Source: Candidatus Gorgyraea atricola (GTDB lineage: Bacteria > Omnitrophota > Gorgyraeia > Gorgyraeales > Gorgyraeaceae). From it: DNA of 64,000 nt. The notes under the pieces were generated by a model that saw only the letters and a list, made by a program, of their open reading frames with translations, had not been told where the DNA came from and did no database searches. Where the stretch lies: positions 8,144 to 72,143 of the forward strand of contig JAVCCW010000030.1 in assembly GCA_030765235.1 (NCBI GenBank). Reading direction: 5' to 3'. The translations under genes and the position numbers were made by a program. Each line of letters begins with the position of its first letter. Position 1 is the stretch's first letter. This document shows, one piece after another, positions 17,299-29,845 of the stretch.

Positions 17299-17997
17299 CT
17301 AAGCCTTCTTTTTTTAACTATCGTAAAAACATCAAAAACCATCGCGCCTGCCATTGCAATAAGCACGATTGAAACACTTACCAGCGCGAATTCTTTGTCT
17401 TTTATAAAATGCACTGCCTGATATAAAAGCGCTCCTATAGAGGTAACAAGCATAAAGACAGCTGGTAAAAAAGTAAACTTAATGCTTTTTCCTCTACACA
17501 AAAGCCAGCTCGATATCACCACAAAGCTAAGCGCTGCCACCAGCTGATTGCTGGCGCCAAATACAGGCCAGATCTTGCCCCATTTACCGCTTAGGGCCAA
17601 AAGACCACTGATAAATATTACCACAAAGGTAGAAAAGAATCTATTCTTTATTTTAAAAAGTTCTTCGGATAAGTACCTGCATATCCTTGTCGCTGTATCT
17701 AATGTCGTAAGGATGAATGCGTTAAGTATCATCACTGCTACAAGGCCACCATCCCCAGAGCGCTACACCTATAATAGGCCCTACGATCGGCCCTGCTCCG
17801 GCAATGCTCGCAAAATGATGACTAAAAAGGATTAACCAATTCCTGGCAGGTACGTAATCCACGCCGTCATAATACTTGTGGGCAGGCGTCACGTTTTTGG
17901 GATTTACTTCAAAGAATCTCTCTATGATCCGGGCATAAAAAAAATACCCGGCTCCGAGGAACACGAGCGAGGCTAGGATTACTGTGAGTGAATTCAT
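17283..17997 (-). pseudogene. cstA: carbon starvation protein CstA remnant: two out-of-frame fragments (17722-17997 N-terminal, 17283-17735 internal)
   Basis: Fragment 1 carries CstA N-terminal blocks (DYVPARNWLILFSHHFASIAGAGPIVGPIIG). Fragment 2 carries AFILTTLDTATR. Together ~240 aa versus ~600-700 aa for intact CstA, with a frame change at 17722-17735. Confidence 0.5.
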
Positions 17998-19245
17998 CTA
18001 TCGGATAAAGAATTCCATCAATTCGTAACCGCGGTCAATGCGGAATTTGGTCGAACGGGCCTCTTTCTCGTTAAAATACAGGATATCATCCTGCTCTATG
18101 TCAGTACCATACATCGCAAAACACACGTGATCGCGCGAATGTGTCCTGAGAGAGATGGGTGTCGCGTGATCAGAGGTAACAAGTATCCTGAATTCCTCTT
18201 TCGAAGACTTAAAATGCTCCAGCACTGTCCCGACGACAAATTTGTCAAACTTCTCAATGCTCGTGATCTTCTCTTTTAGATCCCCGTTATGACCAGCCTC
18301 GTCAGGCGCCTCCACATGCACAAATACAAAATCCCTATCCTTAAGAGAATCGATCGCATACTGCGCCTTGCCCAAATAATTCGTATCATAATAACCAGTT
18401 GCGCCAGGCACATCGATCACCTTTAGCCCAATGATCTTACCTATACCTTTAATAAGATCCACTGCTGAAATGATAGCGCCTTCTATCTTGTACTTCTCTG
18501 AAAACTTCGGCATGAATGGCCTTGTGCCTTGTCCCCATAGCCAGGTCGCATTCGCAGGATTTTCTTTCAGATCCAACCGCACCCTATTTACCTCGTGACT
18601 CAGCAGCACATCCCTGGAATCATCCATGAGCCTCTTTAAAAATTCAGCATAGTCACCTTTTTTCGGAAGACGAGGATCTATCTTTTTGCCGATAATGTCA
18701 TGCGGCGGCGCGCACTTCACCTTCATAAGCCCCTTTAGCTCATCTTTATTGTTGCACCTCAATATAAGCAAATGTCTATAGCTCATGCCCGCATAAAATC
18801 TTATATCTTTGGTACTCATCTTGGCATTCAGTTCATCAATAAGATGCCTGGCCTCTTCGCTCGATATATGGCCTGCGCTATAATCCGCCATCCGCCCGTT
18901 AGAAATAGTCACGAGATTGCACCTGAATGCTATCTCGTCGTCCTTCATATCTATGTCCATATTCGCTGCCTCGAGCGGTCCGCGGCCTGTATAATACTTG
19001 CGCGGACTATATCCTAATATAGAAAGATTTGCAACATCACTTGCAGGCGCAAAACGGCCAGGTATCATATTCGTAAGTCCGACCCTGCCCTTCTCTGCAA
19101 TAAAATTCATATTAGGGGTCTTGGCTGCCTCAAGAGGCGTCTTGCCTCCAAGTTCCTCCAGCGGCCTATCTCCCATACCATCGCCGACTAAAACAATATA
19201 TTTCATCTGCGCGCCCTTCTCTTTTTTATCTTCCCTTTTTTCCAC
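17998..19245 (-). CDS. ApgM-type cofactor-independent phosphoglycerate mutase family protein (possible non-orthologous homoserine kinase)
   Basis: MKYIVLVGDGMGDRPL...KTPLEAAKTPNMN metalloenzyme N-terminus, 415 aa, archaeal-type iPGM family. Confidence 0.75.
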   Translation of the reverse strand: MEKREDKKEKGAQMKYIVLVGDGMGDRPLEELGGKTPLEAAKTPNMNFIAEKGRVGLTNMIPGRFAPASDVANLSILGYSPRKYYTGRGPLEAANMDIDMKDDEIAFRCNLVTISNGRMADYSAGHISSEEARHLIDELNAKMSTKDIRFYAGMSYRHLLILRCNNKDELKGLMKVKCAPPHDIIGKKIDPRLPKKGDYAEFLKRLMDDSRDVLLSHEVNRVRLDLKENPANATWLWGQGTRPFMPKFSEKYKIEGAIISAVDLIKGIGKIIGLKVIDVPGATGYYDTNYLGKAQYAIDSLKDRDFVFVHVEAPDEAGHNGDLKEKITSIEKFDKFVVGTVLEHFKSSKEEFRILVTSDHATPISLRTHSRDHVCFAMYGTDIEQDDILYFNEKEARSTKFRIDRGYELMEFFIR

Positions 19246-21383
19246 GCCCTGAAAAATGCCTCTACTACAGCAGGGTCAAACTGTGTGCCCACGTTATCCT
19301 TGAGCTCTTTCAATGCCTGCTTCCCTGGCAATGCCTTTCTGTAAGGCCTGTCAGATACCATGGCATGATATGCATCCACAACAGCTATAATGCGAGACTC
19401 GATAGGGATCTCCTCGGCCTTTAGCCCGTCAGGGTAACCACTGCCATCATATTTTTCCTGATGGTGTTTGATTATAACAGCTACCTTTCTTAATCTAGCA
19501 ACAGGCTCCACGATCCTGGCGCCTACATCACAGTGCTGCTTCATTATGCCCCACTCCTCAGAACTGAGTTTCTTCTTTTTATTCAATATCGCGTCAGGCA
19601 CGCCTATCTTGCCTATATCGTGCAAGAGAAGCGCGACCTTTAATTCCTCCATATCAATGCTTGATTTCTGTAATTCAGGGAGCTCATTCGCAACTATCAT
19701 CCCATATTTTGTGACCTCATCCAAATGCCCGCGCGTATAAGAATCCTTCTCATCCACGGTCTTGGCCAGCGCCAACACTGTCTCGAAATGGTTCTTTTTT
19801 TCTTTCTCCCTGAGATTTTCCAGTTTGAGAAAATTCTTCGCATTCTCTATGGCAATAGCGACTTCGTTTGAAAGAGTGGAAAGCAGGCTGATCTCTTCAC
19901 TTGTATAAGGATCTCCCGAGAACTTCTCACCCAGGATCAAAAAACCTGTCAGATCCTTATTCCAGAAACTCGGCATACAAACCTGGCAACCCAACCCCCT
20001 TAATTCACGCTTTAGCTTCTTTTCTCCAACGCCCACGCTTGTATACAGGAGAGGCTTTACCTCTCTCTTTAACCACATAGGTACTGGATGATCACTCCCT
20101 AAAACACACCCTTCCAGGTCCTGGTTATCGCCTCGACGAAATCTTAAAACAAAGTCGCGCGTTTTCTCGTCATATAAAAAAATACAGACACTGCTCGAAC
20201 GCATGTATTTTTTTACAATTCGCGCTATTAGATTTATTAATTTCTGAAGATCAGTTATGAGCACCATGCCGCTACTTGCCTGTACCAGCATGCGCTCATA
20301 TGAAAACCTCTTCTGGAATAAAAATCTGTCTGTCAGCCTTACCAGGAGCCATTCCAGCGGCCTTATTGAAAACACTATGATGAGGACTGCTACGAGTTGA
20401 ATATGACGCGCCCAGTCAAATCTACTATAAAGGGCCTGCTGTATATGAAACACCGCGGATATAAAGCCAAAAAATACAAGCGTAAAGATAAACCAGAAAA
20501 TAAGCTTACGGCCGATCAAATGCCGTTTTTTAACAGTGACCTTTTTTTCGAGCCTCTCTGGCTCGACATACAGATTGTGCATTATGGCTGTGGCGCGCAC
20601 TATCCTGCCGAGCTTATCCATCTCCTCTGGCGCTAATTCAAGAGTAGCTGGATCAAACAATCCTCCTATAAAAGATGTCCCCTCTGTTTTATGTTTATCT
20701 TCAGCGCCTGGCGGCATACCATAAAGTATTACATCCTTTGGTGGTTCTGGCAGTCTTGTAAATCTCTCAGCCAGGTCATACAGCCTGAACATCCCTATAT
20801 CACTTAAAACAATGTTAGGCTTAAACGTCTTTATCTTCTTTAAGACCTCTTCTTTTGTAAAAGCGACGTCCAGCTGATACATGCCCTTGCAGCGCTCCTT
20901 ATCCTGGAAATACGCAAGTTTTGGACTGTACATTATCTTGTTCGGTTCTATAAAAAGAAGCCTTGCCTTGGTCAAGATATTAGAATCCTCAGTTAATTCT
21001 GAAAAACGCCCTCCATCGTATTTCTTTCGAGAAAGGGTCGTTTCTACAATGCTCGCGAGTGTCGCGACTGAAAAGGGTTTGTTTAAAACAGCGTCGCACC
21101 CTATTTTTTCTATCTCTTCCTTATAGTCATCCAAAAAACCTGAAAGCATAACAGTCTTGACGTCAGGATGCGCCTCCCTTACCACCTTCAGGACCTCCAG
21201 GCCGTCTACATCCGGTATTTGAATGTCTAAGAGGATCAAGTCAAACCTGCGTTCATTCAAATATTTTATTGCCTCCTGACCTGAAAAGACAACGCTGACC
21301 TCATAACCCTTTGAAACAAAGAGGTCCTTCAGTGTCAGGGCAATGACCTTTTCATCATCGACTATCAAGATGCGCTTGCTCAT
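19203..21383 (-). CDS. response regulator: receiver domain, membrane segment, GAF-like region, HD-GYP phosphodiesterase
   Basis: N-terminal REC (ILIVDDE...DLILLDIQIPDVDG), central hydrophobic stretch, C-terminal HD-GYP (HDIGKIGVP...HHQEKYDGSGYPDGL). Confidence 0.75.
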   Translation of the reverse strand: MSKRILIVDDEKVIALTLKDLFVSKGYEVSVVFSGQEAIKYLNERRFDLILLDIQIPDVDGLEVLKVVREAHPDVKTVMLSGFLDDYKEEIEKIGCDAVLNKPFSVATLASIVETTLSRKKYDGGRFSELTEDSNILTKARLLFIEPNKIMYSPKLAYFQDKERCKGMYQLDVAFTKEEVLKKIKTFKPNIVLSDIGMFRLYDLAERFTRLPEPPKDVILYGMPPGAEDKHKTEGTSFIGGLFDPATLELAPEEMDKLGRIVRATAIMHNLYVEPERLEKKVTVKKRHLIGRKLIFWFIFTLVFFGFISAVFHIQQALYSRFDWARHIQLVAVLIIVFSIRPLEWLLVRLTDRFLFQKRFSYERMLVQASSGMVLITDLQKLINLIARIVKKYMRSSSVCIFLYDEKTRDFVLRFRRGDNQDLEGCVLGSDHPVPMWLKREVKPLLYTSVGVGEKKLKRELRGLGCQVCMPSFWNKDLTGFLILGEKFSGDPYTSEEISLLSTLSNEVAIAIENAKNFLKLENLREKEKKNHFETVLALAKTVDEKDSYTRGHLDEVTKYGMIVANELPELQKSSIDMEELKVALLLHDIGKIGVPDAILNKKKKLSSEEWGIMKQHCDVGARIVEPVARLRKVAVIIKHHQEKYDGSGYPDGLKAEEIPIESRIIAVVDAYHAMVSDRPYRKALPGKQALKELKDNVGTQFDPAVVEAFFRAWKKGKIKKRRARR

Positions 21384-21619
21384 CCCTTGGTCAATTCCTT
21401 TCTTAAGGACTTTACTATCTCACCTATCTTCAAAGCATACTCCTCAAAATCATTTAAAAGCTGCACGAGTTTCTTCTTCTCGTCTTCTAATTTTTCTGGA
21501 TCAAGGCCTTTTGTCTCTAACTCATGCCTTGTCAGACCTGAGACTATCGTGATCTTGTTGAGCCAGTTATTCAGACTATGAAACTCTTTTCTCAGCGGAC
21601 TAAGCACTGTATCCTCCAT
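21380..21619 (-). CDS. small hypothetical protein inside the phosphorelay operon
   Basis: 79-aa ORF exactly filling the gap between the two receiver genes; no recognisable motif. Confidence 0.35.
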   Translation of the reverse strand: MEDTVLSPLRKEFHSLNNWLNKITIVSGLTRHELETKGLDPEKLEDEKKKLVQLLNDFEEYALKIGEIVKSLRKELTKG

Positions 21620-21988
21620 TTACTTTCCCTCCAGTAGTTTTTCTATGGTTTCTGTTAGACTCTTCAATGATGTGGGCTTGCTTAAAAAGGCATCTGCCCC
21701 AAGCGAGAGACAATTATCCTTTGCGTCATCCTCTTCTCCAAAGCCAGTAAACATGATCACCTTTATATCAGGCTTCAGCATCTTTGCTACCCTTAAGATC
21801 TGCGTGCCTGTCGGCCCTTCTTTTAAATGCAGATCCAGAACCATAAGATGCGGGTTATTTTTCTTCAATAGCTCGAGCCCTGAATCCCCATCTGTAGACG
21901 TGAACACCTGATACCCCTTCACTGTTAAAAAATCTGCTATATTCTTTAACAAGGCCTCTTCATCATCTACTATAAGTATCTTGTGCAC
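21620..21988 (-). CDS. single-domain response regulator (CheY-like receiver)
   Basis: ILIVDDEEAL...HLMVLDLHL...FTGFG receiver signature, 122 aa. Confidence 0.8.
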   Translation of the reverse strand: MHKILIVDDEEALLKNIADFLTVKGYQVFTSTDGDSGLELLKKNNPHLMVLDLHLKEGPTGTQILRVAKMLKPDIKVIMFTGFGEEDDAKDNCLSLGADAFLSKPTSLKSLTETIEKLLEGK

Positions 21989-24198
21989 TATTCCCCCCTC
22001 TTCTTTTTTCTTTTCTCGATAGGTAATTTAATGATAAAAGTCGCGCCCTTGCCATATTCAGACTCGCACCTTATCGAACCGCCGTGCATTTCAATAAAAT
22101 CCCTTATAACATACAGTCCCAGGCCGCTCCCTTTATTTGAGGTGGCCTTTGTTGTAAAATAAGGCGTGAAGAGTTTTTTCTGGCTTTCCTTTGTAAGGCC
22201 TGTGCCATTATCCTTTACCTGGACTGCAAGTATATTGCCTTCTCTTTTTAAGTTTACGATTACCTCGCCCTGGGTCATAACTCCGGCTTTTTCCTTTAAG
22301 GCATCACATATAGCATCAAACGCATTATCTATTAGATTGTAAAAACAGTCCTGCAGGAGCGCTTCACTTCCGAATATAACTGGTATATCGTTTAAAAATT
22401 TCAATTTAAACTTAGGCTCCTTAAATCCTCCGATCCCTGATCGCGAATGACTTATAAGAACAAGGCGGTATGCGTTTTCAATCAAGTTGCGCACATTCAC
22501 CTTTTGAAAATCCACCTTTGCCTTTGCCCTTTTTAATATTGCGGAGGTGATCTCTTTACCTTTATATACCTCTTTATCTATAAGTTCCAATGTGCTCTTT
22601 GCATCCTTTAAAACAGCCTTCACCTTTTCATCATTCACCTGATCCATCTTAAGCCCTTCAAGTTTCATAAGTAAAAGCTCAGCTGAAGAACTTATGGCGA
22701 CCAGACGATTATTAAACTGGTGACTCGCGCCAGGCGCCATATCTGCCAGGGCCTCCCTGCGGGATTTCTCGACTAAGACCATCTTTTCCTTTTGGTGAAA
22801 CTGCGCATTCTCAACTGCCAGGCCTACTTCGTTAGACAAAACCATCAAGAGATTCAGGTCCTCCTGGGTAAACGCTGCATTTGTTCTTTTATTAGAAAGG
22901 ATCACAAAACCTATAAGATCATTCCGTAAGAATGATGGGATTACGCTGTTTGCTTTTAGATGCGAAAGAGAGTTTATCAGTTCTTTTACATGAGGAGAAA
23001 CGCCCTTTGGCGCAAAAAGCCTTATCTCTTCTGTTACGATCGGAAGTCTCCTCATATAAAGATCCTTGATCAAAGCAGAATCTTTAGAAAATTCCCTGGT
23101 TGGCTCAAAAGTAGAATCCAAAGGCTGCATCGGCCTCCAGTAGTTCTTCAGTATATACTTATCCCTTTTGGCATCGAATAAATATATAGCAGCAAATTTG
23201 AGCTTCAAAATCTTGACCAGCTGATGCACTATCAATTTCAAAAGATTATTCAGATTTGCAAACCGAAGCATATTATGCGAAAGCCGCCTAAGGGCCTCTT
23301 GCGATTTAAACTCCTCAGCTCTCAATCTGGATTCGATCCTTTTCTGGAGTTTCATATAGATAAACGGGCCAAGGCTAGCCAAAAGCGCCATTAAAAATAC
23401 AGGCAAAAGCCACCAGCTAGAAGTTGCTCTGGATAAAGGCTCCTTAACCAAACCGCCGAGTCCAAATGGGATGCCTAAGACCACTGCATATACAAAAGCA
23501 AAAATACCTGCACGGGTGAGGGCAATGTTTACATTCATTATACGAAAACGGACGATTGCATAACTAATTGTCGCTAAACCTGCTAAAACAAATATAGAGC
23601 CAAAAGGATAAAATTCAAACCCATAATTAGGTAAGAAATCTATCGAACCTATGCTTGCAATTATGTATGCTATAAATATATATTTTATTTTATTATATTC
23701 TATAGAAGCAATGAACTTGTTTTTCTTGAAACCAGAATACAGCATACCAAGACAATAGAGATATAAAAAGCCATAACCTAATAAAAATATATTATGCAAG
23801 AAACCAACTTTCGTTTGATATCCCCAATAAAATTCATAAAAACCTGAAACAATTTGATCAGTTGTAATTGTTAAAATAACAAAAATAAAACCTACTAAAT
23901 AAACTAAAATAGTAAACTTCTTCTTTATTATCCCTAAAAAAGCAATGGTAAAATGATAAAAACAAACAGGAATAAATATAACTCCTACATAAGCAAATTT
24001 ACACCAAAAAATGGCATCTTCGGGCTTACTACGCGAATATACGACAAAGTATCCTAATAACCAAACAGAAACACTTATGCATTCAAATAGAAAAGTCCTA
24101 TTAATAAGCGATCTTGTGTTTTTGCTAAAAGCAAAGAAGCCTATAAATAAATATATGATACTTATGATTAAAGGTTGTATGGTATAAATAGTTATCAT
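21988..24198 (-). CDS. sensor histidine kinase with N-terminal multi-pass (7TM-like) membrane domain, GAF, HisKA, HATPase
   Basis: ~280 aa of repeated TM helices, then a GAF-like region, H-box SHQFNNRL and HATPase_c N/G boxes (DNGTGL...GSGLGL). Confidence 0.8.
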   Translation of the reverse strand: MITIYTIQPLIISIIYLFIGFFAFSKNTRSLINRTFLFECISVSVWLLGYFVVYSRSKPEDAIFWCKFAYVGVIFIPVCFYHFTIAFLGIIKKKFTILVYLVGFIFVILTITTDQIVSGFYEFYWGYQTKVGFLHNIFLLGYGFLYLYCLGMLYSGFKKNKFIASIEYNKIKYIFIAYIIASIGSIDFLPNYGFEFYPFGSIFVLAGLATISYAIVRFRIMNVNIALTRAGIFAFVYAVVLGIPFGLGGLVKEPLSRATSSWWLLPVFLMALLASLGPFIYMKLQKRIESRLRAEEFKSQEALRRLSHNMLRFANLNNLLKLIVHQLVKILKLKFAAIYLFDAKRDKYILKNYWRPMQPLDSTFEPTREFSKDSALIKDLYMRRLPIVTEEIRLFAPKGVSPHVKELINSLSHLKANSVIPSFLRNDLIGFVILSNKRTNAAFTQEDLNLLMVLSNEVGLAVENAQFHQKEKMVLVEKSRREALADMAPGASHQFNNRLVAISSSAELLLMKLEGLKMDQVNDEKVKAVLKDAKSTLELIDKEVYKGKEITSAILKRAKAKVDFQKVNVRNLIENAYRLVLISHSRSGIGGFKEPKFKLKFLNDIPVIFGSEALLQDCFYNLIDNAFDAICDALKEKAGVMTQGEVIVNLKREGNILAVQVKDNGTGLTKESQKKLFTPYFTTKATSNKGSGLGLYVIRDFIEMHGGSIRCESEYGKGATFIIKLPIEKRKKKRGE

Positions 24199-25490
24199 TT
24201 GTTTCGAGAATAGATTTTTTTAAAATATGAAACATTGTTTAAGAGCACTTTATCATCGTAAATAGTTTTATATACTTTTAGTAGCCCGTTTTGTAATTCG
24301 ATAGCAGACATATGTTTAGGGATAAAATTTACATCCCAAAAAGTATAATTATCCCAATTAAAAGATAGCAATCTATTCTCGTCTTTTAATCTTTCCCTTA
24401 GCCGAGTACCTGGTAAAGGAGTTAAAATAGTAAGTTGTGACGCATATATATGATTATTTATAATGAACTCTGCTGTGTTTTTAAAAACAGTTGTATCATC
24501 GTAATCAAAACCTAATACAAATGCTCCTATTATACCCATCCCTGCCTCTTGAATTTTCTGTATATAATCTTTATACTTGTCCAACATCCTAATTTTAAAA
24601 CCTGCCCTATCTACCGACTCCAAACTTTTTCTTGTAACAGATTCAAAACCTATAAATAAAAAACGACACCCACTTTTCTTCAATAATGCAAGCAATGCCT
24701 TATCCTTTGCTATTGAAATATCAGTCTGCGTCATCCATCTAATCTTTAAAGGAATTAATTTCTCTAATAATTCAAAAGCGTATTTCTTGTTCACAAACAT
24801 ATTATCATCACCAAACCCTATCCAAGGATTTTTAAAAATTGACTTTATTAATTTTACTTCTTTAATTACCTGTTTAATGGATTTGTGTCTAAATTTTGTC
24901 CCAAAAAGTCTAGACGCAATACAAAATTCACAATTATGCGGACATCCACGTGTTGTTTGTATCCAAATAGTCTTATAATTTTCAGGATTTAATAGCTCAT
25001 ATTTCGGGATTGGTGATTTTTCTAAATCAAAAGAGCGTGTAGAAAAATAAAAAGGTTGTGTATTGTTTTTTAAAAAATCATTTATAAATTGTGGCCAAGT
25101 TTCTTCTGCCTCACCTACAATTACACTATCACAATGCTCCTTGGCTTCTTTAGGTAAAATAGTGGCATGAATACCTCCAATTACTACTTTCACATTTCTC
25201 CTTCTAAATTCATCTGCAATCTGATACGCCCTCTGAGCCTGCTGAGTCATGGCAGATAATACTATCAAATCATAGCCCATATCAAAATCAATTGGCTCTA
25301 AATTTTCATCGATCAATTTACACTTCACATCTTTTGGCATTAATGCCCCGATTATTAATAAACCCGTACTCAGACCAGACCAAAAACGACTATAAAATTG
25401 TCTTATTTGATTCTTTTCCCAAAATTCTCTAAATTTAATATCTTTGCTAAAAAATGTTCCCTTTGGAGATATCAGAGCGACTTTTATCAT
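24195..25490 (-). CDS. B12-binding-domain radical SAM protein (class B)
   Basis: N-terminal cobalamin-binding Rossmann-like region and CxxxCxxC radical SAM motif TTRGCPHNCEFC. Confidence 0.8.
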   Translation of the reverse strand: MIKVALISPKGTFFSKDIKFREFWEKNQIRQFYSRFWSGLSTGLLIIGALMPKDVKCKLIDENLEPIDFDMGYDLIVLSAMTQQAQRAYQIADEFRRRNVKVVIGGIHATILPKEAKEHCDSVIVGEAEETWPQFINDFLKNNTQPFYFSTRSFDLEKSPIPKYELLNPENYKTIWIQTTRGCPHNCEFCIASRLFGTKFRHKSIKQVIKEVKLIKSIFKNPWIGFGDDNMFVNKKYAFELLEKLIPLKIRWMTQTDISIAKDKALLALLKKSGCRFLFIGFESVTRKSLESVDRAGFKIRMLDKYKDYIQKIQEAGMGIIGAFVLGFDYDDTTVFKNTAEFIINNHIYASQLTILTPLPGTRLRERLKDENRLLSFNWDNYTFWDVNFIPKHMSAIELQNGLLKVYKTIYDDKVLLNNVSYFKKIYSRNK

Positions 25491-25500
25491 ATGTCCTTCT

Positions 25501-26592
25501 TTATGCTTTCCGTCTAATATACTTCACATCCGCACAATACTTAAAGAGCCGCGAAAGCAGATCTTTGTCGATTACGGGCCATCTAAATTCTTTGCCGTTT
25601 ATGGCTGCGTCGAAGTTTTCAGCATCAAATATCACTGTACGATGATTAAAATATGGTAAATACGGCTCTATCACCTTTCTCCTGAAACCCTTTAGATCTT
25701 CAAAATGAAACTTTTGCTGCAATGTCAACTTGGGCTTTTGAAAACCAAAGTAAGAACTGGCCATCTCTAATAAGAAATCCAAGGCTATTGTATTAGGATT
25801 GGTCAGGTGATAATTTCTATTATTATTTTCCTTTTCGGACGATATAAGGTATATTGCCTGGGCCACATAATCTATAGGCACAAGATTATACCCGAGCGTC
25901 CTGTCAGCAGGGATCTCGTCAAATATTCCGAGTGAAAATATATGCAGAGGCTGGTAAAACATCTGAAAATTAGAGACCTCACCGGTCTTGGAATCCCCTG
26001 TTATTATGCTAGGTCGATATATGGATATAGATAGGCCTTTGTGTCTATATTCGGCTATCAACTTTTCTGCCTCAAATTTAGTCTCTTCATAAGTATTATT
26101 GAAACCCTGGCCTACATCCAGAGAGTCTTCATAAAAGATGCCACCAAACTTACCCACCACAGCCACTGTACTTATATGATGAAAAGAATCAAATTGATTA
26201 TTTTCATTGCACTGCAAGGCAAAATCCAGGACATTCTTTGTACCCAATACATTTATCTTTCTAATCGGCTCAAGCGGCATTCCAAATTCGCATAATGCCG
26301 CGCAATGATATATCGTCTCTATTTCTTTGCGTAGCTTATCGAGTGTGAATTTTTTAATCCCCATATCTTTCTTGGTTGTATCTCCATGCACGACCTCAAT
26401 TCTTTCATTTATGCCATCTCTCTTTGCCTTATCGTAACTCTTATTTATTAGCTTGGTTATCCTATCTTTGGCCTTCATATCTGAGTTTCCGCGGACAAGG
26501 AGATACAGCTTAGAATCCTGCTTTTTCAGCAAGTTCTTTACTATATCCCATCCCAAAAATCCTGTGGCCCCTGTAATAAATATATTCTTCAT
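25501..26592 (-). CDS. thioester-reductase / fatty acyl reductase (NAD_binding_4) family protein; track start 26649, MKNIFITGATG at 26592 preferred
   Basis: IFITGATGFLGWDIV Rossmann motif of TR domains and a catalytic YxxxK region. Confidence 0.7.
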   Translation of the reverse strand: MKNIFITGATGFLGWDIVKNLLKKQDSKLYLLVRGNSDMKAKDRITKLINKSYDKAKRDGINERIEVVHGDTTKKDMGIKKFTLDKLRKEIETIYHCAALCEFGMPLEPIRKINVLGTKNVLDFALQCNENNQFDSFHHISTVAVVGKFGGIFYEDSLDVGQGFNNTYEETKFEAEKLIAEYRHKGLSISIYRPSIITGDSKTGEVSNFQMFYQPLHIFSLGIFDEIPADRTLGYNLVPIDYVAQAIYLISSEKENNNRNYHLTNPNTIALDFLLEMASSYFGFQKPKLTLQQKFHFEDLKGFRRKVIEPYLPYFNHRTVIFDAENFDAAINGKEFRWPVIDKDLLSRLFKYCADVKYIRRKA

Positions 26593-27980
26593 TTTATCTT
26601 TACTGAGATCTTTCTGGGAATTTTGTAGATCGCCAGCCTCTCTTTGCAAAACGACTTTACATCTTTTTCTGTCACTTCTTTTCGTGAGGCGATCTCTAAT
26701 CGTGCATTGATCCTATGTCCCCACAAATCATCCGTTATAACATCCAGTTCTATATCCTTTGCCCCCGGGAAAGAAGACATTACATCTTTCACCTCCTTCA
26801 AATCAACATTGTTGCCCCCTATTTTGGCAATATCTTTCTTTAGGCCATTGAAATATATATACCCATCCTCATCCAGCTGCCCGTTATCTCCTGTATAAAA
26901 CCAGCCTTTTCTCAAAAATTTTTGATTCTCGCCGTTTTTATTATAATACCCCTGCATCACGGTTGGCCCGCCTATAAGGATCTCTCCGTCAGCGATCTTT
27001 ATCTCTACCTCATGTCCTGACACACCTAAGGAATCCGGCCTATTTCTTGATTTGGGATTACATGCTATCGGCATTGTCTCTGTCAGGCCATAACCCTGCA
27101 ACAACTCAATGCCCATCTCTTCTTTAATCGCTTTATGAATAGCTAACGGCATATAACTCCCGCCAGTAATGCCGTATTTAAGACTGCTTATGTCAAAGCG
27201 GCCCTTACTATAATTTTTAAGAAGAGAGATATACACTGTTGGTACAGCTATAATAAAGTCTATCTTGTGCGCCTCTATTACCTTGAGTATATGACTCGGT
27301 ATAAAACTTCGCGTTATGACTACAGTAGCCCCGCGCAACAGCGGCACGATCACACAGCTCACCAATGTGAAGATATGCGACATAGGAATGACCAATAAAA
27401 AGCGCTGGGCAGTCACGACTTCTGTAAGTCTTACATATCCGATGGCGCCGTGATGATAATTTCCATGCGTGAGCATTGCGCCCAAAGGTTTTCCTATGCC
27501 TCGATATGTATAGTTAATCGTAGCGACCTGATTATTGCTGGTGTTAAAATTCGGGAGAGGGCCCTCTTCTCCTATGCTTAACAATTCATTAATCTGTTTA
27601 TCAATAGCTATTATTAGCCTATCTTTACTAAGTATAGACGCGACCTTTTTGTCGTACAATGAAGAGGTAGTTATTATGCCTTTTGGCTTACAGTCATTGA
27701 AGATCTTTTTTAATTCAAAACTCGTAAGCTGTGGATTGAGCGGCACGCTTATGACATTTATCCTTGAAAGCGCATAGAAACTATATATGAACTCCTTGCA
27801 GTTTGGAAGAAAGATAACGATCTTATCGTCTTGCCTCAGCCCCATTTTTAAAAAGGCCTTTGCCAATAACTCAATATTCTTCCAAAGCTCGGAGTAAGAC
27901 ACCTTTACGTCATCCTGGATTATGCATGTCTTTTTTGACATCTTGGTTGATACCCAATGAAGTGAGGTGCCTAAGTTCAT
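26589..27980 (-). CDS. fatty acyl-AMP ligase / acyl-CoA synthetase family adenylating enzyme
   Basis: AMP-binding motifs INYTYRGIGKPLGAMLTH, YGLTET, YFTGDNGQLDEDGYIYFNGLKKD. Confidence 0.75.
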   Translation of the reverse strand: MNLGTSLHWVSTKMSKKTCIIQDDVKVSYSELWKNIELLAKAFLKMGLRQDDKIVIFLPNCKEFIYSFYALSRINVISVPLNPQLTSFELKKIFNDCKPKGIITTSSLYDKKVASILSKDRLIIAIDKQINELLSIGEEGPLPNFNTSNNQVATINYTYRGIGKPLGAMLTHGNYHHGAIGYVRLTEVVTAQRFLLVIPMSHIFTLVSCVIVPLLRGATVVITRSFIPSHILKVIEAHKIDFIIAVPTVYISLLKNYSKGRFDISSLKYGITGGSYMPLAIHKAIKEEMGIELLQGYGLTETMPIACNPKSRNRPDSLGVSGHEVEIKIADGEILIGGPTVMQGYYNKNGENQKFLRKGWFYTGDNGQLDEDGYIYFNGLKKDIAKIGGNNVDLKEVKDVMSSFPGAKDIELDVITDDLWGHRINARLEIASRKEVTEKDVKSFCKERLAIYKIPRKISVKIK

Positions 27981-27985
27981 ATACG

Positions 27986-28249
27986 CTATTTCTCCTTAAC
28001 ATAAAACATGACTAGATCTATCAGATCTCCAACAGTCACTATATCAAACGCCTTTGCCTCGTCAATCACTATACCTAACCTCTTTTCAACTGCAGCCAAT
28101 ATCTCCATTGCTGCTAAAGAATCAATGCCCAGATCATCTCTTATATCAGCGCTCTCCTTGACCTTTTTTACATCCATTCTTGCGATCTCAGCAACTAACC
28201 TTTTTATATCTTTCCTGATACCTGCTGCCTTAGAGGTTTTTTTAGCCAT
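27986..28249 (-). CDS. acyl carrier protein (phosphopantetheine attachment, DSL)
   Basis: 87 aa with DDLGIDSLAAMEI PP-binding motif. Confidence 0.7.
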   Translation of the reverse strand: MAKKTSKAAGIRKDIKRLVAEIARMDVKKVKESADIRDDLGIDSLAAMEILAAVEKRLGIVIDEAKAFDIVTVGDLIDLVMFYVKEK

Positions 28250-28259
28250 TTAGGTCTCC

Positions 28260-29570
28260 TTAATATTTATAGGTGAACCCCACTGCAAAAATATTCACGA
28301 ATTGTTCATATCTGCCGTCTATATCAGCATTACTGGTTGAACCTACGCCATTTGCTACATCTCTATCTTCGAAAAACAATGCAAGATATGAGATATCCAT
28401 TGTCATGTCTTTAAATGTATAACCAAATCCGCAAGTAATTCCATACCTGTCAGAATCAGGCAGAGCAGTGTCAAAATTTGCTTCAGATACAGGAGTTTGT
28501 TCATACATATATCCGCACCTTAGCTGTATCTTATCTGATGCGTCATAATTAACACCTATGCCAAGAGAAAACACGTCTTCCCAGTCCTTTGACGCTGGGT
28601 TACCGGCGTTTAAGATTTGGAGCTTTATGGGATGAGTTTCCGTCTCCCATTCTACCCAGTCTTGTACAACACTTGACCAACCTGTCCATTCCAAGTCAGC
28701 CTCGAAAGTTAATACATCGTTTACATCCCATGCATATCCTAAAGTAACAACCTCAGGAAGTGTCATGTCTGCCTTGATCGAGGTATCATAAGACGCGCCA
28801 AATAGTCCTGCAGTGGCATCAGCACCCAGGCCATTCAATGAAAGAGTGCCTTTTTGTGAAAAGTCTACCTCGCTCCTGTATGCTACAGCCAGTCTGTGCG
28901 AATCTTTAAAGCTATAAAGCATCCCCAAGTTATAGCCCCAGCTTTCATCATCAGCCTTAAGATAAAAATCACCGTCAGCCTCTACAGCAGAGCCACCTAA
29001 AAGCGTATTAACGCGTGTGACATTGAACTTCCTATACTTATTGACATTGCTTATCATATAGTTTAAACCAGCGCCGATTGATAGATTATCATTTACCTTA
29101 TATGCTACTGAAGGGTTTATATTCTCGACCCTCACATCTGATTCTGTGGCAACATACCGAGAATAGCTGTCATCTGGCCAGTCAGTGCCAAGTCCATATG
29201 GAATAGTAACGCCCAGACCAAATGTAAATTCCTCAAGGCCAAAGTCATCAACGAGGTAAAAATTTGGCACAAAAAAGCTCTGGCTTTCCATGTCTACTTC
29301 TCCTGCGCCTGTAGGCGTGCCTCTACCAATCGGCATCTCAAGGGTATAGCCTATACTTACTGCAGAACCGTCTAAATACGACATGGCAGCAGGGTTATAG
29401 TATACTGCTGCAGGATCATCTATCTGCGCAGCACCTGCTGAGCCCCTTCCCATACCTTTTGCGCTTACCACCTCATTCTTGAAGCCACCTGCGCCAACTG
29501 CAAAAGCTACATTAGTCGATACCATGATCAAAGTAAACAATAACAAGCCGCACCATAACTTCCTAAGCAT
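28260..29570 (-). CDS. fadL: FadL/TodX-family outer-membrane hydrophobic-compound transporter
   Basis: Signal peptide, then GSAGAAQIDDPAAVYYNPAAM N-terminal hatch motif; beta-rich sequence ending in aromatic FTYKY. Confidence 0.75.
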   Translation of the reverse strand: MLRKLWCGLLLFTLIMVSTNVAFAVGAGGFKNEVVSAKGMGRGSAGAAQIDDPAAVYYNPAAMSYLDGSAVSIGYTLEMPIGRGTPTGAGEVDMESQSFFVPNFYLVDDFGLEEFTFGLGVTIPYGLGTDWPDDSYSRYVATESDVRVENINPSVAYKVNDNLSIGAGLNYMISNVNKYRKFNVTRVNTLLGGSAVEADGDFYLKADDESWGYNLGMLYSFKDSHRLAVAYRSEVDFSQKGTLSLNGLGADATAGLFGASYDTSIKADMTLPEVVTLGYAWDVNDVLTFEADLEWTGWSSVVQDWVEWETETHPIKLQILNAGNPASKDWEDVFSLGIGVNYDASDKIQLRCGYMYEQTPVSEANFDTALPDSDRYGITCGFGYTFKDMTMDISYLALFFEDRDVANGVGSTSNADIDGRYEQFVNIFAVGFTYKY

Positions 29571-29764
29571 TACCCACCCCCATTTGTTTGCTGTTCACTC
29601 TCTTCTATCCACTTACTAATAGAATCCCTTCTTATTCTCCAGCTGGTACCTATCTTAAAAGCAGGGATCTTCCCGTTCTTCACATACTTGTAGATCGTCA
29701 TAGGATGCACATCCATATAGTCAGCCACATCCTTGATCGTTAAAATGTCCTTTGACTTAGTCAC
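29570..29764 (-). CDS. excisionase/MerR-type helix-turn-helix DNA-binding protein, GTG start
   Basis: LTIKDVADYMDVHPMTIYKYVKNGKIPAFKIG matches the TIGR01764-like HTH. Stop overlaps the fadL start; AAAGGAG RBS. Confidence 0.6.
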   Translation of the reverse strand: MTKSKDILTIKDVADYMDVHPMTIYKYVKNGKIPAFKIGTSWRIRRDSISKWIEESEQQTNGGG

Positions 29765-29804
29765 AATATACTCCTTTATATTCTATTAAACCAACGTATA
29801 AAGA

Positions 29805-29832
29805 AGTATACTGATTTTATACCCTTTGTCAA
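29805..29832 (-). promoter_or_regulatory. sigma70-like promoter for the HTH-fadL-ACP-ligase-reductase-rSAM operon
   Basis: Minus strand reads TTGACA, 16-nt spacer, TATACT, about 35 nt upstream of the AAAGGAG RBS and GTG start of the HTH gene. Confidence 0.5.
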
Positions 29833-29845
29833 GGGTAGCTGCCCT

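What the first reader, a model, noticed from the sequence alone, without database searches (positions are those of the whole stretch)
24195..29832. Compact operon HTH-FadL-ACP-acylAMP ligase-thioester reductase-B12 radical SAM with its own promoter: candidate undescribed lipid import and modification system
Six genes with 0-10-nt spacing or overlaps follow a TTGACA-16-TATACT promoter at 29805-29832. They are an excisionase-type HTH protein; a FadL/TodX outer-membrane hydrophobic-substrate channel; a free-standing ACP; a ~460-aa adenylating enzyme of FAAL/acyl-CoA synthetase type; a stand-alone TR-domain reductase, which releases aldehyde or alcohol from acyl-ACP thioesters; and a class-B B12-binding radical SAM enzyme, typically a methylation or other chemistry on unactivated carbon. 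Together they suggest uptake of an exogenous fatty or hydrophobic acid, loading onto ACP, reductive release and radical-SAM tailoring. That logic matches signalling-lipid or unusual membrane-lipid pathways, but in a combination I do not recognise as a named pathway. The operon reads directly into a sensor kinase/receiver/HD-GYP relay.
Basis: partly seen in the sequence, partly recalled or inferred. Interest (0 to 1): 0.85.

Follow-up and report, generated by a model that had tools for sequence, protein, structure and literature searches.

The report
Lipid-tailoring operon wired to c-di-GMP relay
The six genes are real and conserved, but they are the front half of a ten-gene operon that joins an undescribed carrier-protein pathway for modifying a hydrophobic acid to a membrane sensor kinase relay ending in a c-di-GMP-degrading enzyme, which suggests a new kind of lipid signalling circuit found in several bacterial phyla.

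Summary
All six domain calls hold, the genes overlap or sit 0-10 nt apart, and the TTGACA-16-TATACT promoter is invariant in five relatives whose proteins are only about 45-95% identical. The unit is larger than reported. Ten translationally coupled genes (19203-29832, minus strand) continue into a 7TM-GAF histidine kinase, a receiver, a 79-aa His-containing protein and a REC-GAF-HD-GYP phosphodiesterase. The source is an Omnitrophota MAG (Ca. Gorgyraea atricola). Comparative genomics shows a conserved core of ligase, ACP, cobalamin-type radical SAM enzyme and a polytopic kinase, usually with HD-GYP. It occurs in Omnitrophota, Spirochaetota, Chitinivibrionales and a Pseudomonadota MAG. FadL and the thioester reductase recur, PilZ is often fused to the ACP, and paralogue loci lack all of this. 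The ligase belongs to an atypical ANL subfamily (P-loop YTYRGxGxPLG, no A10 lysine), not the FAAL type. Between the window and its closest relative everything is 82-95% identical except the rSAM (53%) and the kinase's 7TM sensor (47%). No curated family or paper describes the system. Best reading (about 0.4): a DSF/Rpf-like lipid signal circuit with a new synthase logic. Chemistry and physiological role remain inferred.

The parts
29805..29832 (-). Sigma-70-type promoter, TTGACA-16 nt-TATACT
   Evidence: It is the best match in the region at 11/12. The -35, the spacing and the -10 are invariant in five class-A loci whose flanking upstream DNA does not align.
29764..29813 (-). Conserved leader with a 17-nt inverted repeat (arms 29764-29780 and 29797-29813). 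It links the -10/transcription start region to the ribosome-binding site and GTG start. It is a candidate operator for the HTH protein or an RBS-masking hairpin.
   Evidence: The repeat is 88% complementary with a 16-nt spacer. The leader is conserved across loci. No Rfam family matches it.
29570..29764 (-). 64-aa HTH_17 (excisionase/MerR-like) DNA-binding protein, the presumed operon regulator
   Evidence: PF12728 scores 65.5 bits and TIGR01764 scores 56.4 against a cut-off of 28.8. An HTH_17 gene also heads the cluster in L001, L165, L166, L171 and the P0184 contig.
28260..29570 (-). FadL/TodX-family outer-membrane channel for hydrophobic molecules (436 aa)
   Evidence: PF03349 scores 273 bits over the full length. 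It has a signal peptide, an NPA motif and a C-terminal aromatic residue. It is not an E. coli FadL equivalog (119.6 against 585). FadL also appears in L085, L165, L166, L171, L167, L169 and L170.
27986..28249 (-). Dedicated 87-aa acyl carrier protein (Ser44 in DSL)
   Evidence: PF00550 scores 54.8. It falls below the housekeeping AcpP cut-off (43.9 against 70.45). The motif is shown. Homologues in L001, L169 and L170 are fused to an N-terminal PilZ domain.
26589..27980 (-). Atypical ANL (adenylate-forming) ligase, 463 aa. The P-loop reads YTYRGIGKPLG, A8 reads GLKKD, and the protein ends before the A10 SGK lysine.
   Evidence: PF00501 scores 229 bits. Among the 120 best homologues, none has the canonical [ST]G[ST]TGxPKG P-loop and none has a terminal SGK, and about 100 show the YTYRGxGxPxG pattern. 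The feature is shared by classes A, B and C, whereas the L097 ligase is canonical.
25501..26592 (-). Stand-alone thioester reductase (SDR, NAD_binding_4), 363 aa counted from ATG 26592
   Evidence: PF07993 scores 208 bits. TIGR01746 scores 184.5 against 213. The closest solved structures are the MxaA and PKS terminal reductases. GATGFLG and YxxxK are present.
24195..25490 (-). Cobalamin-type (class B fold) radical SAM enzyme with a DUF4070 tail, 431 aa. It has the lowest G+C in the region (0.312, GC3 0.245).
Evidence: The AF2 model has pLDDT 88. The best folds are AprD4 (TM 0.76), MgmA, TsrM, CysS and TokK. No NCBIfam equivalog is reached.
21988..24198 (-). Histidine kinase with HisKA_7TM sensor (residues 10-223, about 23530-24171), GAF and a kinase core. 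Its start overlaps the rSAM stop (ATGA).
Evidence: A polytopic kinase gene follows the rSAM gene directly in class A, class C, L170 and the P0184 contig, and lies about 1 kb downstream in L169.
23350..25510 (-). Hypervariable block covering the whole rSAM gene plus the 7TM sensor-coding part of the kinase gene
   Evidence: Nucleotide identity to the closest relative, L171, is 85-92% on both sides and 50-68% inside. The upstream break is sharp and falls at the TR stop/rSAM start. At protein level rSAM is 53% and HK 1-230 is 47%, against 82-95% for the other genes.
21620..21988 (-). Stand-alone receiver domain (122 aa, Asp52)
   Evidence: PF00072 scores 79 bits.
21380..21619 (-). 79-aa helical protein with a conserved His14 (EFHSLNN). 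It is a candidate DHp/Hpt-like phosphotransfer protein.
   Evidence: It has no Pfam or NCBIfam hit. It aligns to the kinase H-box region with E = 0.004 for that single comparison. The His is conserved in L085 and L005. Homologues sit at the same position in L165 and L171.
19203..21383 (-). REC, two TM helices, GAF and HD-GYP: a c-di-GMP phosphodiesterase-type output protein (726 aa)
   Evidence: HD_5 scores 135.6, HD scores 78.7 and Response_reg scores 92 bits. The HD (LLLHDIGK) and HHQEKYDGSGYP motifs are intact.

Best explanation
This is a ten-gene operon that couples a carrier-protein pathway for tailoring a hydrophobic carboxylic acid to a dedicated phosphorelay ending in c-di-GMP hydrolysis. 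In logic it is a lipid-signal circuit like Rpf/DSF, but with a different synthase.

Proposed mechanism:
1. The FadL-type channel lets the hydrophobic acid, or the finished signal from neighbouring cells, cross the outer membrane.
2. The atypical ANL ligase loads the acid onto the dedicated ACP.
3. The cobalamin-type radical SAM enzyme modifies an unactivated carbon of the ACP-bound chain. The chemistry could be alkylation, rearrangement or dehydration and is unknown.
4. The thioester reductase releases the product as a neutral aldehyde or alcohol.
5. That lipid partitions into the inner membrane and is read by the 7TM domain of the kinase encoded by the very next gene.
6. Phosphate passes from the kinase to the REC protein, then to the 79-aa His protein, then to REC-GAF-HD-GYP, which lowers c-di-GMP.

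In other lineages PilZ domains fused to the ACP or to the release enzyme would feed the c-di-GMP level back onto the pathway.

Shown: gene content, operon structure, intact catalytic and phospho-acceptor motifs, co-conservation, and hypervariability of the rSAM and the sensor domain.

Inferred: the substrate, every reaction, the order of steps, that the kinase senses the product, and the direction of phosphate flow.
For: Operon unity. Ten genes have -4 to +10 nt spacing behind one conserved promoter.

Co-conservation.
- Of 17 loci retrieved through the rSAM alone at 42% identity or more with at least 4 kb of flank, 10 carry the ligase, 10 the ACP and 9 an HD-GYP.
- Of 96 paralogue-level loci, the counts are 1, 2 and 0.
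- The full ten-gene order recurs in L085 and L165, and in L171 apart from a gap in the HD-GYP gene.
- FadL, PilZ::ACP, TR, ligase, rSAM and a 7TM kinase occur together in a Pseudomonadota MAG and in an unclassified bacterium.
- Spirochaete loci carry a PilZ-PilZ-LuxD-like hydrolase-methyltransferase protein, then ligase, ACP, rSAM and a multi-TM HK-REC-HD-GYP fusion.

The release enzymes differ but all give reduced or neutralised products. They are TR, an HGD-D/double-cubane-like reductase with its activase, or a hydrolase plus methyltransferase.

The relay looks functional. HD and GYP motifs, the receiver Asp and the kinase H-box are all present, and the 79-aa protein shares the H-box His.

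Between near relatives only the rSAM and the kinase's 7TM domain are replaced. The 7TM domain is the most divergent part in every class-A pair. This is what is expected if enzyme and sensor track the same variable ligand.

Precedents. In the rpf cluster an acyl-ACP-derived fatty acid signal is read by RpfC and then RpfG (REC-HD-GYP), with the ligase RpfB alongside (PMC8042644). FadL modulates long-chain AHL signalling in rhizobia (PMC9938287, title and abstract listing).
Against: No experiment exists for any member, and all class A-C examples come from uncultured organisms.

rSAM and 7TM identities do not co-vary across pairs. Window against L165 gives rSAM 66% but 7TM 41%. The two parts are therefore hypervariable but not shown to be inherited as a unit.

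Closely related spirochaete loci show no such mosaic.

The ligase lacks the A10 lysine and has altered A3 and A8 motifs, so even the loading step is uncertain.

The best structural match of the rSAM is AprD4, a dehydratase that, to my knowledge, does not use cobalamin.

Some rSAM orthologue loci have no HD-GYP. These are the KS-type clusters and L168.

The class-A operon itself contains no PilZ or GGDEF gene. The only GGDEF gene in the window is about 29 kb away.
Confidence: 0.4

Rival explanations
1. Envelope-lipid remodelling under sensory control. The pathway makes a modified fatty aldehyde or alcohol that is built into membrane lipids, for example ether, wax or branched lipids. The 7TM kinase senses membrane state, as DesK does (from my own knowledge). 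c-di-GMP and PilZ tune the flux.
For: The ligase-ACP-reductase logic matches ElbD of myxobacterial ether-lipid synthesis (PMC9131029). Related rSAM clusters are clearly lipid or fatty-acid factories. They carry KS, ACP, FabA, KR and ECH genes, or KS, ACP, FabA and phytoene-desaturase-like genes as in ladderane clusters (PMC13459092). PilZ is fused to the ACP or to a START/SRPBCC lipid-binding domain. Polytopic kinases without periplasmic loops can sense bilayer properties.
Against: There is no acyltransferase, glycerol-phosphate or head-group enzyme in any class A-C cluster. A dedicated ligase and ACP acting on a free acid is unusual for bulk lipid synthesis. Replacement of only the rSAM and the sensor domain between near relatives is hard to explain for a housekeeping membrane lipid. 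The output is an HD-GYP protein rather than a transcription factor.
Confidence: 0.25
2. Sense-and-process module for an exogenous hydrophobic acid, serving scavenging or detoxification. The compound enters through FadL and is sensed by the kinase. It is then activated, modified and reduced for assimilation or to remove toxicity.
For: FadL/TodX channels import hydrophobic substrates. The closest solved relatives of the ligase are CoA ligases for aromatic and fatty acids. Enzyme and sensor specificity would also be expected to change together under this model, and the N-terminal, substrate-binding half of the ligase is the second most diverged segment. Omnitrophota are reported to have host-dependent traits (PMC10066038, title listing).
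Against: The pathway uses a dedicated ACP instead of CoA and there are no beta-oxidation or other downstream catabolic genes. FadL is absent from the spirochaete and L001 versions. c-di-GMP output and PilZ fusions are not typical of catabolic operons.
Confidence: 0.15
3. Specialised-metabolite gene cluster, for example an antibiotic or surfactant lipid, whose kinase and HD-GYP genes merely regulate expression or link production to biofilm state.
For: A, ACP, R and a tailoring rSAM is classical natural-product logic. The TR is closest to the PKS/NRPS terminal reductases MxaA and MxcG. The rSAM shares its fold with CysS and TokK, which act on pantetheine-bound substrates.
Against: The cluster sits in the same chromosomal slot (trp operon upstream, phosphoglycerate mutase downstream) in diverged Omnitrophota, which points to vertical inheritance. 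No orthologue was found on plasmids. There are no transporter or resistance genes. In most examples the rSAM gene is followed directly by the kinase gene, and the rSAM and sensor domain are both hypervariable, which points to more than generic regulation.
Confidence: 0.12
4. The mosaic rSAM/sensor block is an assembly chimera of two co-occurring populations in the MAG, and the gene neighbourhood has no functional meaning beyond co-location.
For: The window comes from a metagenome-assembled genome. The block has deviant G+C.
Against: Flanks differ by about 10% from the nearest relative, so exact k-mer joins are unlikely. The rSAM gene has the lowest, or near-lowest, G+C of its operon in the other class-A loci too. 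The same architecture was assembled independently many times and in several phyla. Reading frames and ATGA overlaps are intact at both block edges.
Confidence: 0.03

Closest known systems
Rpf/DSF cell-cell signalling cluster of Xanthomonas (RpfB ligase, RpfF synthase, RpfC sensor kinase, RpfG REC-HD-GYP)
   Same: A fatty-acyl-ACP-derived molecule, a fatty-acid ligase, a membrane sensor kinase and a receiver-HD-GYP phosphodiesterase are encoded together, and the output is c-di-GMP degradation (PMC8042644). The window has the ligase, ACP chemistry, a polytopic kinase and REC-HD-GYP in one operon.
   Different: The class-A operon has no crotonase (RpfF) homologue. The signal-forming enzymes would be a radical SAM enzyme and a thioester reductase. 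The ligase is a divergent ANL subfamily. The kinase is 7TM-GAF rather than an RpfC-type hybrid. There is a four-component relay with an extra REC and a small His protein. A FadL channel and an HTH_17 gene are included.
ElbD (myxobacterial ether-lipid synthesis) and carboxylic acid reductases: adenylation, carrier protein and reductase acting on a free acid
   Same: The chemical logic is the same: activate a carboxylic acid, tether it to a phosphopantetheine arm and reduce the thioester to an aldehyde or alcohol (PMC9131029). The TR matches the CAR and NRPS/PKS reductase domains.
   Different: Here the three activities are separate proteins. There is no acyltransferase domain. A radical SAM enzyme is inserted into the pathway. 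The CAR equivalog score is 88.5 against a cut-off of 1300. The ligase lacks canonical A3 and A10 motifs.
Cobalamin-dependent (class B) radical SAM lipid and carrier-bound tailoring enzymes (HpnJ, HpnR, the ladderane-cluster rSAM TIGR04072, CysS, TokK)
   Same: An N-terminal Rossmann/B12-type domain precedes a CxxxCxxC radical SAM barrel. The genes sit next to ACP genes, as proposed for ladderane clusters (PMC13459092). The fold matches MgmA, TsrM, CysS and TokK.
   Different: All named families score far below their cut-offs: HpnJ 111 against 578, BchE 99 against 481, TIGR04072 74 against 360, HpnR 60 against 650. The best structural match is the dehydratase AprD4. No characterised member is linked to a ligase, a thioester reductase or a c-di-GMP relay.
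Pherotype loci such as agrBDC and comQXP (from my own knowledge, not tested here)
   Same: There is a contiguous hypervariable segment covering the signal-modifying enzyme and the membrane sensor domain of the adjacent kinase, while the kinase core and downstream genes stay conserved.
   Different: Those systems use peptide signals. Here no co-phylogeny of enzyme and sensor could be shown, and specificity groups are hypothetical.

Membership tests
FadL/TodX outer-membrane transporter family (PF03349) | Full-length match to the family profile, signal peptide, N-terminal hatch with NPA motif | tested here: met
   PF03349 scores 273 bits over profile positions 4-420 of 421.
E. coli-type long-chain fatty acid transporter FadL (NF007988 equivalog) | Score at or above the curated cut-off of 585 bits | tested here: not met
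   The score is 119.6 bits. It is a family member, not a FadL orthologue, so the substrate is open.
ANL adenylate-forming enzymes (PF00501) | Profile match plus A5 (GYGxTE) and A7 (TGD) motifs | tested here: met
   PF00501 scores 229 bits.
Canonical acyl-CoA synthetase / adenylation chemistry | A3 P-loop [ST]G[ST]TGxPKG and the A10 catalytic lysine (SGK) near the C-terminus | tested here: not met
   The P-loop reads YTYRGIGKPLG. The protein ends 8 residues after YKIP, before the position of the MenE A10 segment. The same holds in all 120 closest homologues.
Fatty acyl-AMP ligases (FAAL) | FAAL-type insertion and closest similarity to FadD32/FadD28-type enzymes | tested here: not met
   None of the PDB matches at E <= 1e-30 is deposited as a fatty acyl-AMP ligase. 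The best are MenE, feruloyl-CoA synthetase, FadD13 and 4CL. At 463 aa it is about the length of MenE. The insertion itself was not mapped structurally.
Thioester reductase domain (PF07993 / TIGR01746) | Profile match, GxxGxxG nucleotide site, catalytic YxxxK | tested here: met
   PF07993 scores 208 bits against a cut-off of 20. The closest structures are the MxaA and PKS terminal reductases. TIGR01746 is narrowly missed (184.5 against 213.35).
Cobalamin-binding (class B) radical SAM enzymes | B12-binding-type N-terminal domain plus a CxxxCxxC radical SAM core | tested here: met
   PF02310 scores 47.4 and PF04055 scores 52.6. Fold matches have TM 0.6-0.76.
Cobalamin-binding (class B) radical SAM enzymes | Actual cobalamin binding and methyl transfer | not testable with these tools
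   The top structural match, AprD4, has the same fold but, from my own knowledge, works without cobalamin. The chemistry therefore cannot be read from the fold.
Named lipid or tetrapyrrole rSAM equivalogs (HpnJ, BchE, HpnR, ladderane TIGR04072) | Score at or above the curated cut-off | tested here: not met
   Scores are 111 against 578, 99 against 481, 60 against 650 and 74 against 360. Orthologues in L170 and L010 score similarly.
HD-GYP c-di-GMP phosphodiesterases | HD and HHExxDGxGYP motifs in an HD_5 domain | tested here: met
   HD_5 scores 135.6 bits. Activity was not tested.
Rpf/DSF system | RpfF-type crotonase as signal synthase | tested here: not met
   There is no enoyl-CoA hydratase/crotonase domain among the ten genes. 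An ECH gene occurs only in the distant KS-type clusters.
Rpf/DSF system | Sensor kinase plus REC-HD-GYP regulator encoded with fatty-acid enzymes | tested here: met
   This is a resemblance of architecture, not of orthology.
Multi-step phosphorelay (HK, REC, His-phosphotransfer protein, REC-output) | A stand-alone receiver with a phospho-acceptor Asp, and a separate His-containing phosphotransfer protein | tested here: inconclusive
   The receiver has D52. The 79-aa protein aligns to the kinase H-box with E = 0.004 for that single comparison, and its His is conserved in two aligned relatives. It has no Hpt or HisKA profile hit.

The most novel reading that the evidence does not exclude
This would be a previously unrecognised, multi-phylum class of lipid signalling system. 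A carrier-protein pathway (atypical lysine-less ANL ligase, ACP, cobalamin-type radical SAM enzyme, reductive or methyl-ester release) would make a membrane-soluble signal. That signal would be read by the adjacent polytopic kinase and converted into c-di-GMP hydrolysis. c-di-GMP would gate the carrier protein itself through PilZ::ACP fusions. The rSAM and the sensor domain would be exchanged as specificity cassettes, giving 'lipid pherotypes' among close relatives.
Probability: 0.3. Interest if true: 0.9.

Novelty: new variant of a known kind. Interest (0 to 1): 0.72.

Why it matters
If the reading is right, four things follow.
- It would add a new chemical family of bacterial lipid signals, and a new synthase logic, to the short list of fatty-acid-derived signals such as DSF and 3-OH-PAME. 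This would be in phyla (Omnitrophota, Spirochaetota, Fibrobacterota relatives) where nothing is known about cell-cell signalling.
- It would give a ligand hypothesis for the uncharacterised HisKA_7TM sensor family and a physiological role for one branch of the very large set of DUF4070 B12-type radical SAM proteins.
- It would reveal a direct link between c-di-GMP and carrier-protein biochemistry through the PilZ::ACP fusions.
- The ligase subfamily, which lacks the lysine thought essential for adenylation, is of mechanistic interest in its own right.

Even the more conservative reading, regulated envelope-lipid tailoring, would describe an unrecognised lipid pathway in abundant uncultured anaerobes.

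Tried and rejected
Searches that led nowhere:
- Exact look-ups of the window's rSAM in the contig index found nothing.
These were kept as a negative control, because they lack the neighbours.
- The Rfam scan of the operon and leader found nothing, including no c-di-GMP riboswitch. The only hit was a sub-threshold miRNA model, which I treat as chance.
- A search with the 7TM domain alone returned 6 hits at 51% identity or less and missed known relatives. Co-transfer of rSAM and sensor from one donor could therefore not be tested.
- Plasmids hold only paralogue-level rSAM hits below 39% identity.
- Literature searches for the gene combination, DUF4070, HisKA_7TM, Gorgyraea, brGDGT/rSAM and PilZ-ACP found no description of the system.

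Ideas considered and rejected:
- Co-phylogeny of rSAM and 7TM: pairwise identities do not correlate.
- The same mosaic in spirochaete loci: close pairs are uniformly 78-97% identical.
- FAAL identity of the ligase.
- Membership in the ladderane, hopanoid or BchE rSAM families.
- An anti-phage MADS1 role for the HTH protein: it scores 59.8 against 80 and there are no other defence genes.
- The 79-aa ORF as a PilZ domain: no hit.
- The 81-aa ORF after the HD-GYP gene in L001 as a homologue of the 79-aa protein: it is not.
- The upstream histone-deacetylase-family gene as part of the operon: it is separated by the promoter and absent in L165 and L085.

Full report
**1. What is in the sequence**

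Six ORFs lie on the minus strand at 24195-29764.
- HTH_17, 65.5 bits
- FadL/Toluene_X, 273 bits, full length
- PP-binding, 54.8 bits
- AMP-binding, 229 bits
- NAD_binding_4, 208 bits
- B12-binding + Radical_SAM + DUF4070

The motifs are intact.
- FadL has a signal peptide, a YYNPAA hatch motif and an aromatic C-terminus.
- The ACP has the DSL serine.
- The reductase has GATGFLG and YxxxK.
- The rSAM has CPHNCEFC.

Gene spacing is -1, +10, +5, -4 and +10 nt. The reductase is best started at ATG 26592, which forms an ATGA overlap with the ligase stop.

TTGACA-16-TATACT at 29832-29805 is the single 11/12 match in 12 kb and sits in the only real gap (81 nt). Promoter-like sites in general are no more frequent than in shuffles (28 against 29.4). 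The decisive support is a phylogenetic footprint. In five loci whose proteins are 45-95% identical, the upstream DNA cannot be aligned until exactly CTTGACAA. After that point the -35, the spacing, the -10, the leader and the AAAGGAG ribosome-binding site are almost invariant. A 17-nt inverted repeat joins the -10/start region to the RBS. No Rfam family matches.

**2. The unit is ten genes, not six**

The rSAM stop overlaps the start of a 736-aa histidine kinase built of HisKA_7TM, GAF and HATPase_c. Three more genes follow: a 122-aa receiver, a 79-aa ORF, and a 726-aa REC-TM-TM-GAF-HD-GYP protein. Their spacing is -4, -1, 0 and -4 nt.

The HD and HHQEKYDGSGYP motifs are intact, as is the receiver Asp. 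The 79-aa protein has no family hit. Its conserved His14 (EFHSLNN) aligns with the kinase H-box (SHQFNN) at E = 0.004 for that single comparison, and the His is kept in relatives. I read it as a small DHp/Hpt-like phosphotransfer protein, which would make a four-step relay. This is an inference.

The block is bounded by housekeeping genes. Upstream are the trp operon and a deacetylase-family gene. Downstream are phosphoglycerate mutase and aspartokinase.

**3. Source**

NCBI holds proteins identical to the rSAM and the ligase as MDP8230969.1 and MDP8230971.1, from a MAG of Candidatus Gorgyraea atricola (Omnitrophota), on a 118-kb contig. The paper that described that MAG does not mention these genes.

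**4. Co-conservation**

The rSAM has thousands of homologues, many at 50-68% identity in Omnitrophota. The contexts fall into recurring architectures.

| Class | Loci | Architecture |
|---|---|---|
| A | window, L085, L165, L171, L005 (contig starts at the TR/rSAM junction), L166 (contig lacks the distal relay genes) | All ten genes in the same order and in the same chromosomal slot |
| B | L001/L002, complete Omnitrophota chromosome | HTH_17, HGD-D, PilZ::ACP, rSAM, ligase, HGD-D, activase, 7TM-GAF kinase, sigma-54 regulator, REC-HD-GYP |
| C | Spirochaetes and relatives | About 1200-aa PilZ-PilZ-(LuxD-like hydrolase)-methyltransferase protein, ligase, ACP, rSAM, multi-TM HK-REC-HD-GYP fusion |

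Class A details. L171's HD-GYP gene is interrupted or incomplete in the assembly, so only its C-terminal part matched.

Class B details. The HGD-D proteins resemble double-cubane-cluster reductases but score below the cut-off.

Further variants:
- Chitinivibrionales: rSAM, ligase, ACP, a START-like/PilZ protein, kinases, REC and HD-GYP.
- A Pseudomonadota MAG: FadL, PilZ::ACP, TR, ligase, rSAM and a 7TM-GAF hybrid kinase.
- An unclassified bacterium: REC-HD-GYP, GAF-HK-PilZ, PilZ::ACP, TR, ligase, rSAM, a hybrid kinase and FadL.
- Another Omnitrophota-type contig: HTH_17, a 7TM kinase, ACP, TR, ligase, rSAM, a 7TM-GAF kinase, REC, REC and GAF-HD-GYP.

The PilZ part of the L001 fusion carries the RRxxxR motif.

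Quantitatively, I counted loci retrieved through the rSAM alone that have at least 4 kb of flank.

| rSAM similarity to the window | Loci | With ligase | With ACP | With HD-GYP |
|---|---|---|---|---|
| 42% identity or more | 17 | 10 | 10 | 9 |
| Paralogue level | 96 | 1 | 2 | 0 |

Six of the seven orthologue-level loci without the ligase are KS-type clusters (section 8).

They include 15 of the 24 best rSAM hits.

The invariant core is therefore ligase, ACP, rSAM and a polytopic kinase, usually with HD-GYP and often with PilZ. FadL, TR and HTH_17 are frequent but replaceable.

**5. The individual enzymes**

Ligase.
- Its closest solved relatives are MenE, feruloyl-CoA synthetase, FadD13 and 4-coumarate ligases. 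None is a FAAL.
- Aligned to MenE, the P-loop TSGTTGKPKG reads TYRGIGKPLG and A8 reads GLKKD.
- The protein stops before the A10 SGK lysine.
- This is a family trait. Among the 120 closest homologues (37-100% identity), none has the canonical P-loop and none has a terminal SGK. About 100 show YTYRGxGxPxG.
- Classes A, B and C share the trait, while an unrelated neighbouring ligase (L097) is canonical.
- Whether and how this enzyme adenylates is open.

ACP. It falls below the housekeeping AcpP cut-off, so it is a dedicated carrier.

Reductase. It is closest to the terminal reductases MxaA and a type I PKS TR, and to the CAR R-domains.

rSAM.
- It reaches no curated equivalog.
- A confident AF2 model (pLDDT 88) matches AprD4 best (TM 0.76), then MgmA, TsrM, CysS and TokK.
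- The fold is class-B-like. To my knowledge AprD4 works as a dehydratase without cobalamin, so methylation cannot be assumed.
- The current review of lipid-modifying rSAM enzymes lists nothing resembling this cluster.

**6. A hypervariable enzyme and sensor block**

The closest relative, L171, is 85-92% identical at nucleotide level across the whole region. The exception runs from about 25,510 to about 23,350-23,650, where identity falls to 50-68%. The upstream break is sharp and coincides with the TR stop/rSAM start. The downstream edge lies at the end of the 7TM-coding part of the kinase gene.

Protein identities between the window and L171:

| Protein | % identity |
|---|---|
| HTH | 95 |
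| FadL | 86 |
| ACP | 83 |
| Ligase | 82 |
| TR | 89 |
| rSAM | 53 |
| Kinase residues 1-230 | 47 |
| Kinase remainder | 87 |
| REC | 91 |
| 79-aa protein | 90 |

In all ten class-A pairs the 7TM domain is the most diverged part, at 39-50%. This holds even where the kinase core is 74-87% identical.

The rSAM gene also has the lowest G+C of the region (0.312, GC3 0.245, against 0.434 for the window), and the lowest or near-lowest in the other class-A loci.

The pattern resembles pherotype loci, where a modifying enzyme and the sensor domain of the adjacent kinase diversify together. That comparison rests on my own knowledge of agr and com.

Caveats:
- rSAM and 7TM identities do not co-vary between pairs.
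- Close spirochaete loci show no mosaic.
- The 7TM-only homologue search was too insensitive to find a donor.

**7. Interpretation**

The most economical chemistry has four steps.
1. The ligase loads a hydrophobic acid onto the ACP.
2. The rSAM modifies the tethered chain.
3. The TR releases an aldehyde or alcohol.
4. In other lineages an ATP-driven reductase, or a hydrolase plus methyltransferase, replaces the TR. The product is again neutral and more membrane-soluble.

Several observations point the same way.
- In most examples a loop-less polytopic kinase gene directly follows the rSAM gene.
- The relay ends in HD-GYP.
- PilZ domains are fused to the carrier or to release proteins.
- The rSAM and the sensor are both hypervariable.

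Together they make a lipid-signal circuit the best single reading. Its nearest known analogue is the rpf cluster, where an acyl-ACP-derived fatty acid is sensed by RpfC and then RpfG (REC-HD-GYP), with the ligase RpfB alongside (PMC8042644). FadL's role in long-chain AHL signalling (PMC9938287) gives a precedent for the channel.

I put this reading at about 0.4. The rivals are:
- regulated envelope-lipid tailoring, with ElbD-like logic (PMC9131029), at about 0.25
- a sense-and-process module for an exogenous acid, at about 0.15
- a specialised-metabolite cluster, at about 0.12

An assembly artefact is unlikely.

**8. Related clusters seen on the way**

rSAM orthologues at 40-51% identity also sit in type II FAS/PKS-like clusters.
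- One set occurs in Wukongibacter and in gut and fermentation metagenomes. It has SAM synthetase, KS/CLF pairs, ACP, FabA, two rSAMs, three HGD-D proteins with an activase, ECH, KR and a conserved GGDEF-NHL protein.
- Another has KS, ACP, FabA, three rSAMs, a methyltransferase and phytoene-desaturase-like genes, followed by a 7TM-GAF kinase, FadL and a receiver.

These show that this rSAM clade acts in ACP-based lipid chemistry and keeps its association with c-di-GMP or 7TM-kinase parts in quite different biosynthetic settings.

**9. Novelty**

No NCBIfam equivalog (release of June 2026) covers the ligase, ACP, rSAM, PilZ::ACP or PilZ-hydrolase-methyltransferase proteins. No paper in the library describes the combination. 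All parts belong to known superfamilies, and the overall logic has a known analogue in Rpf/DSF. I therefore rate it a new variant of a known kind, with a substantial chance of being something more distinctive.

Noticed in passing
window 58626-60038 (minus strand): A HAMP-GAF-GGDEF diguanylate cyclase-type gene (GGDEF 105 bits). It is the only GGDEF found in the window and lies about 29 kb from the operon. It shows that the organism can probably make c-di-GMP.
   Followed up: partly
L010 4034-20471 (Wukongibacter sp. M2B1 chromosome); also L093, L096, L098-L100, L105, L107, L108, L113: A large conserved cluster with SAM synthetase, two KS/CLF-like pairs, ACP, FabA-like dehydratase, two tandem B12-type rSAMs, three HGD-D proteins plus an activase, ECH, KR and a GGDEF-NHL protein. 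It appears to be an undescribed anaerobic fatty-acid or polyketide pathway in Clostridia and in gut and fermentation metagenomes. Its first rSAM is 40-46% identical to the window's.
   Followed up: partly
L167 1-19299 (MAG GCA_049472335.1): A ladderane-cluster-like gene set (KS, ACP, FabA/ApeI-like, KS, three B12-type rSAMs, a methyltransferase, three phytoene-desaturase-like genes) in an unclassified bacterium. It is followed by a HisKA_7TM-GAF kinase, FadL and a receiver.
   Followed up: no
L171 7338-8108, against window 29839-29848: The closest relative carries an extra 256-aa gene with no Pfam hit, a roughly 1-kb insertion, between the deacetylase-family gene and the operon promoter. The window lacks it.
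   Followed up: no
L166 10299-13714; L171 16673-17364: The relay is not intact everywhere. In L166 the kinase gene call is truncated and REC, the small His protein and HD-GYP are replaced by nucleotidyltransferase-type genes. In L171 the receiver part of the HD-GYP gene is missing or interrupted. These may reflect decay of the relay or assembly problems.
   Followed up: no
window 17283-17735 (minus strand): A 150-aa ORF matches only the C-terminal end (profile positions 440-558 of 560) of carbon starvation protein CstA. It is probably a gene remnant between the aspartokinase and phosphoglycerate mutase genes. The relatives L165 and L005 have no gene there.
   Followed up: no
window 27300-28200: There is a second, milder dip in identity to L171 (71-79% nt against 85-92%). 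It covers the ACP gene and the N-terminal, substrate-binding half of the ligase (ligase residues 1-230 are 75% identical, residues 231-463 are 89%).
   Followed up: partly
window 44053-45459 and 49203-52391 (minus strand): A secretin (GspD/PilQ-type) gene and a 1062-aa protein with only a C-terminal FlgD-Ig / weak Por_Secre_tail match. They probably encode surface or secretion functions unrelated to the operon.
   Followed up: no
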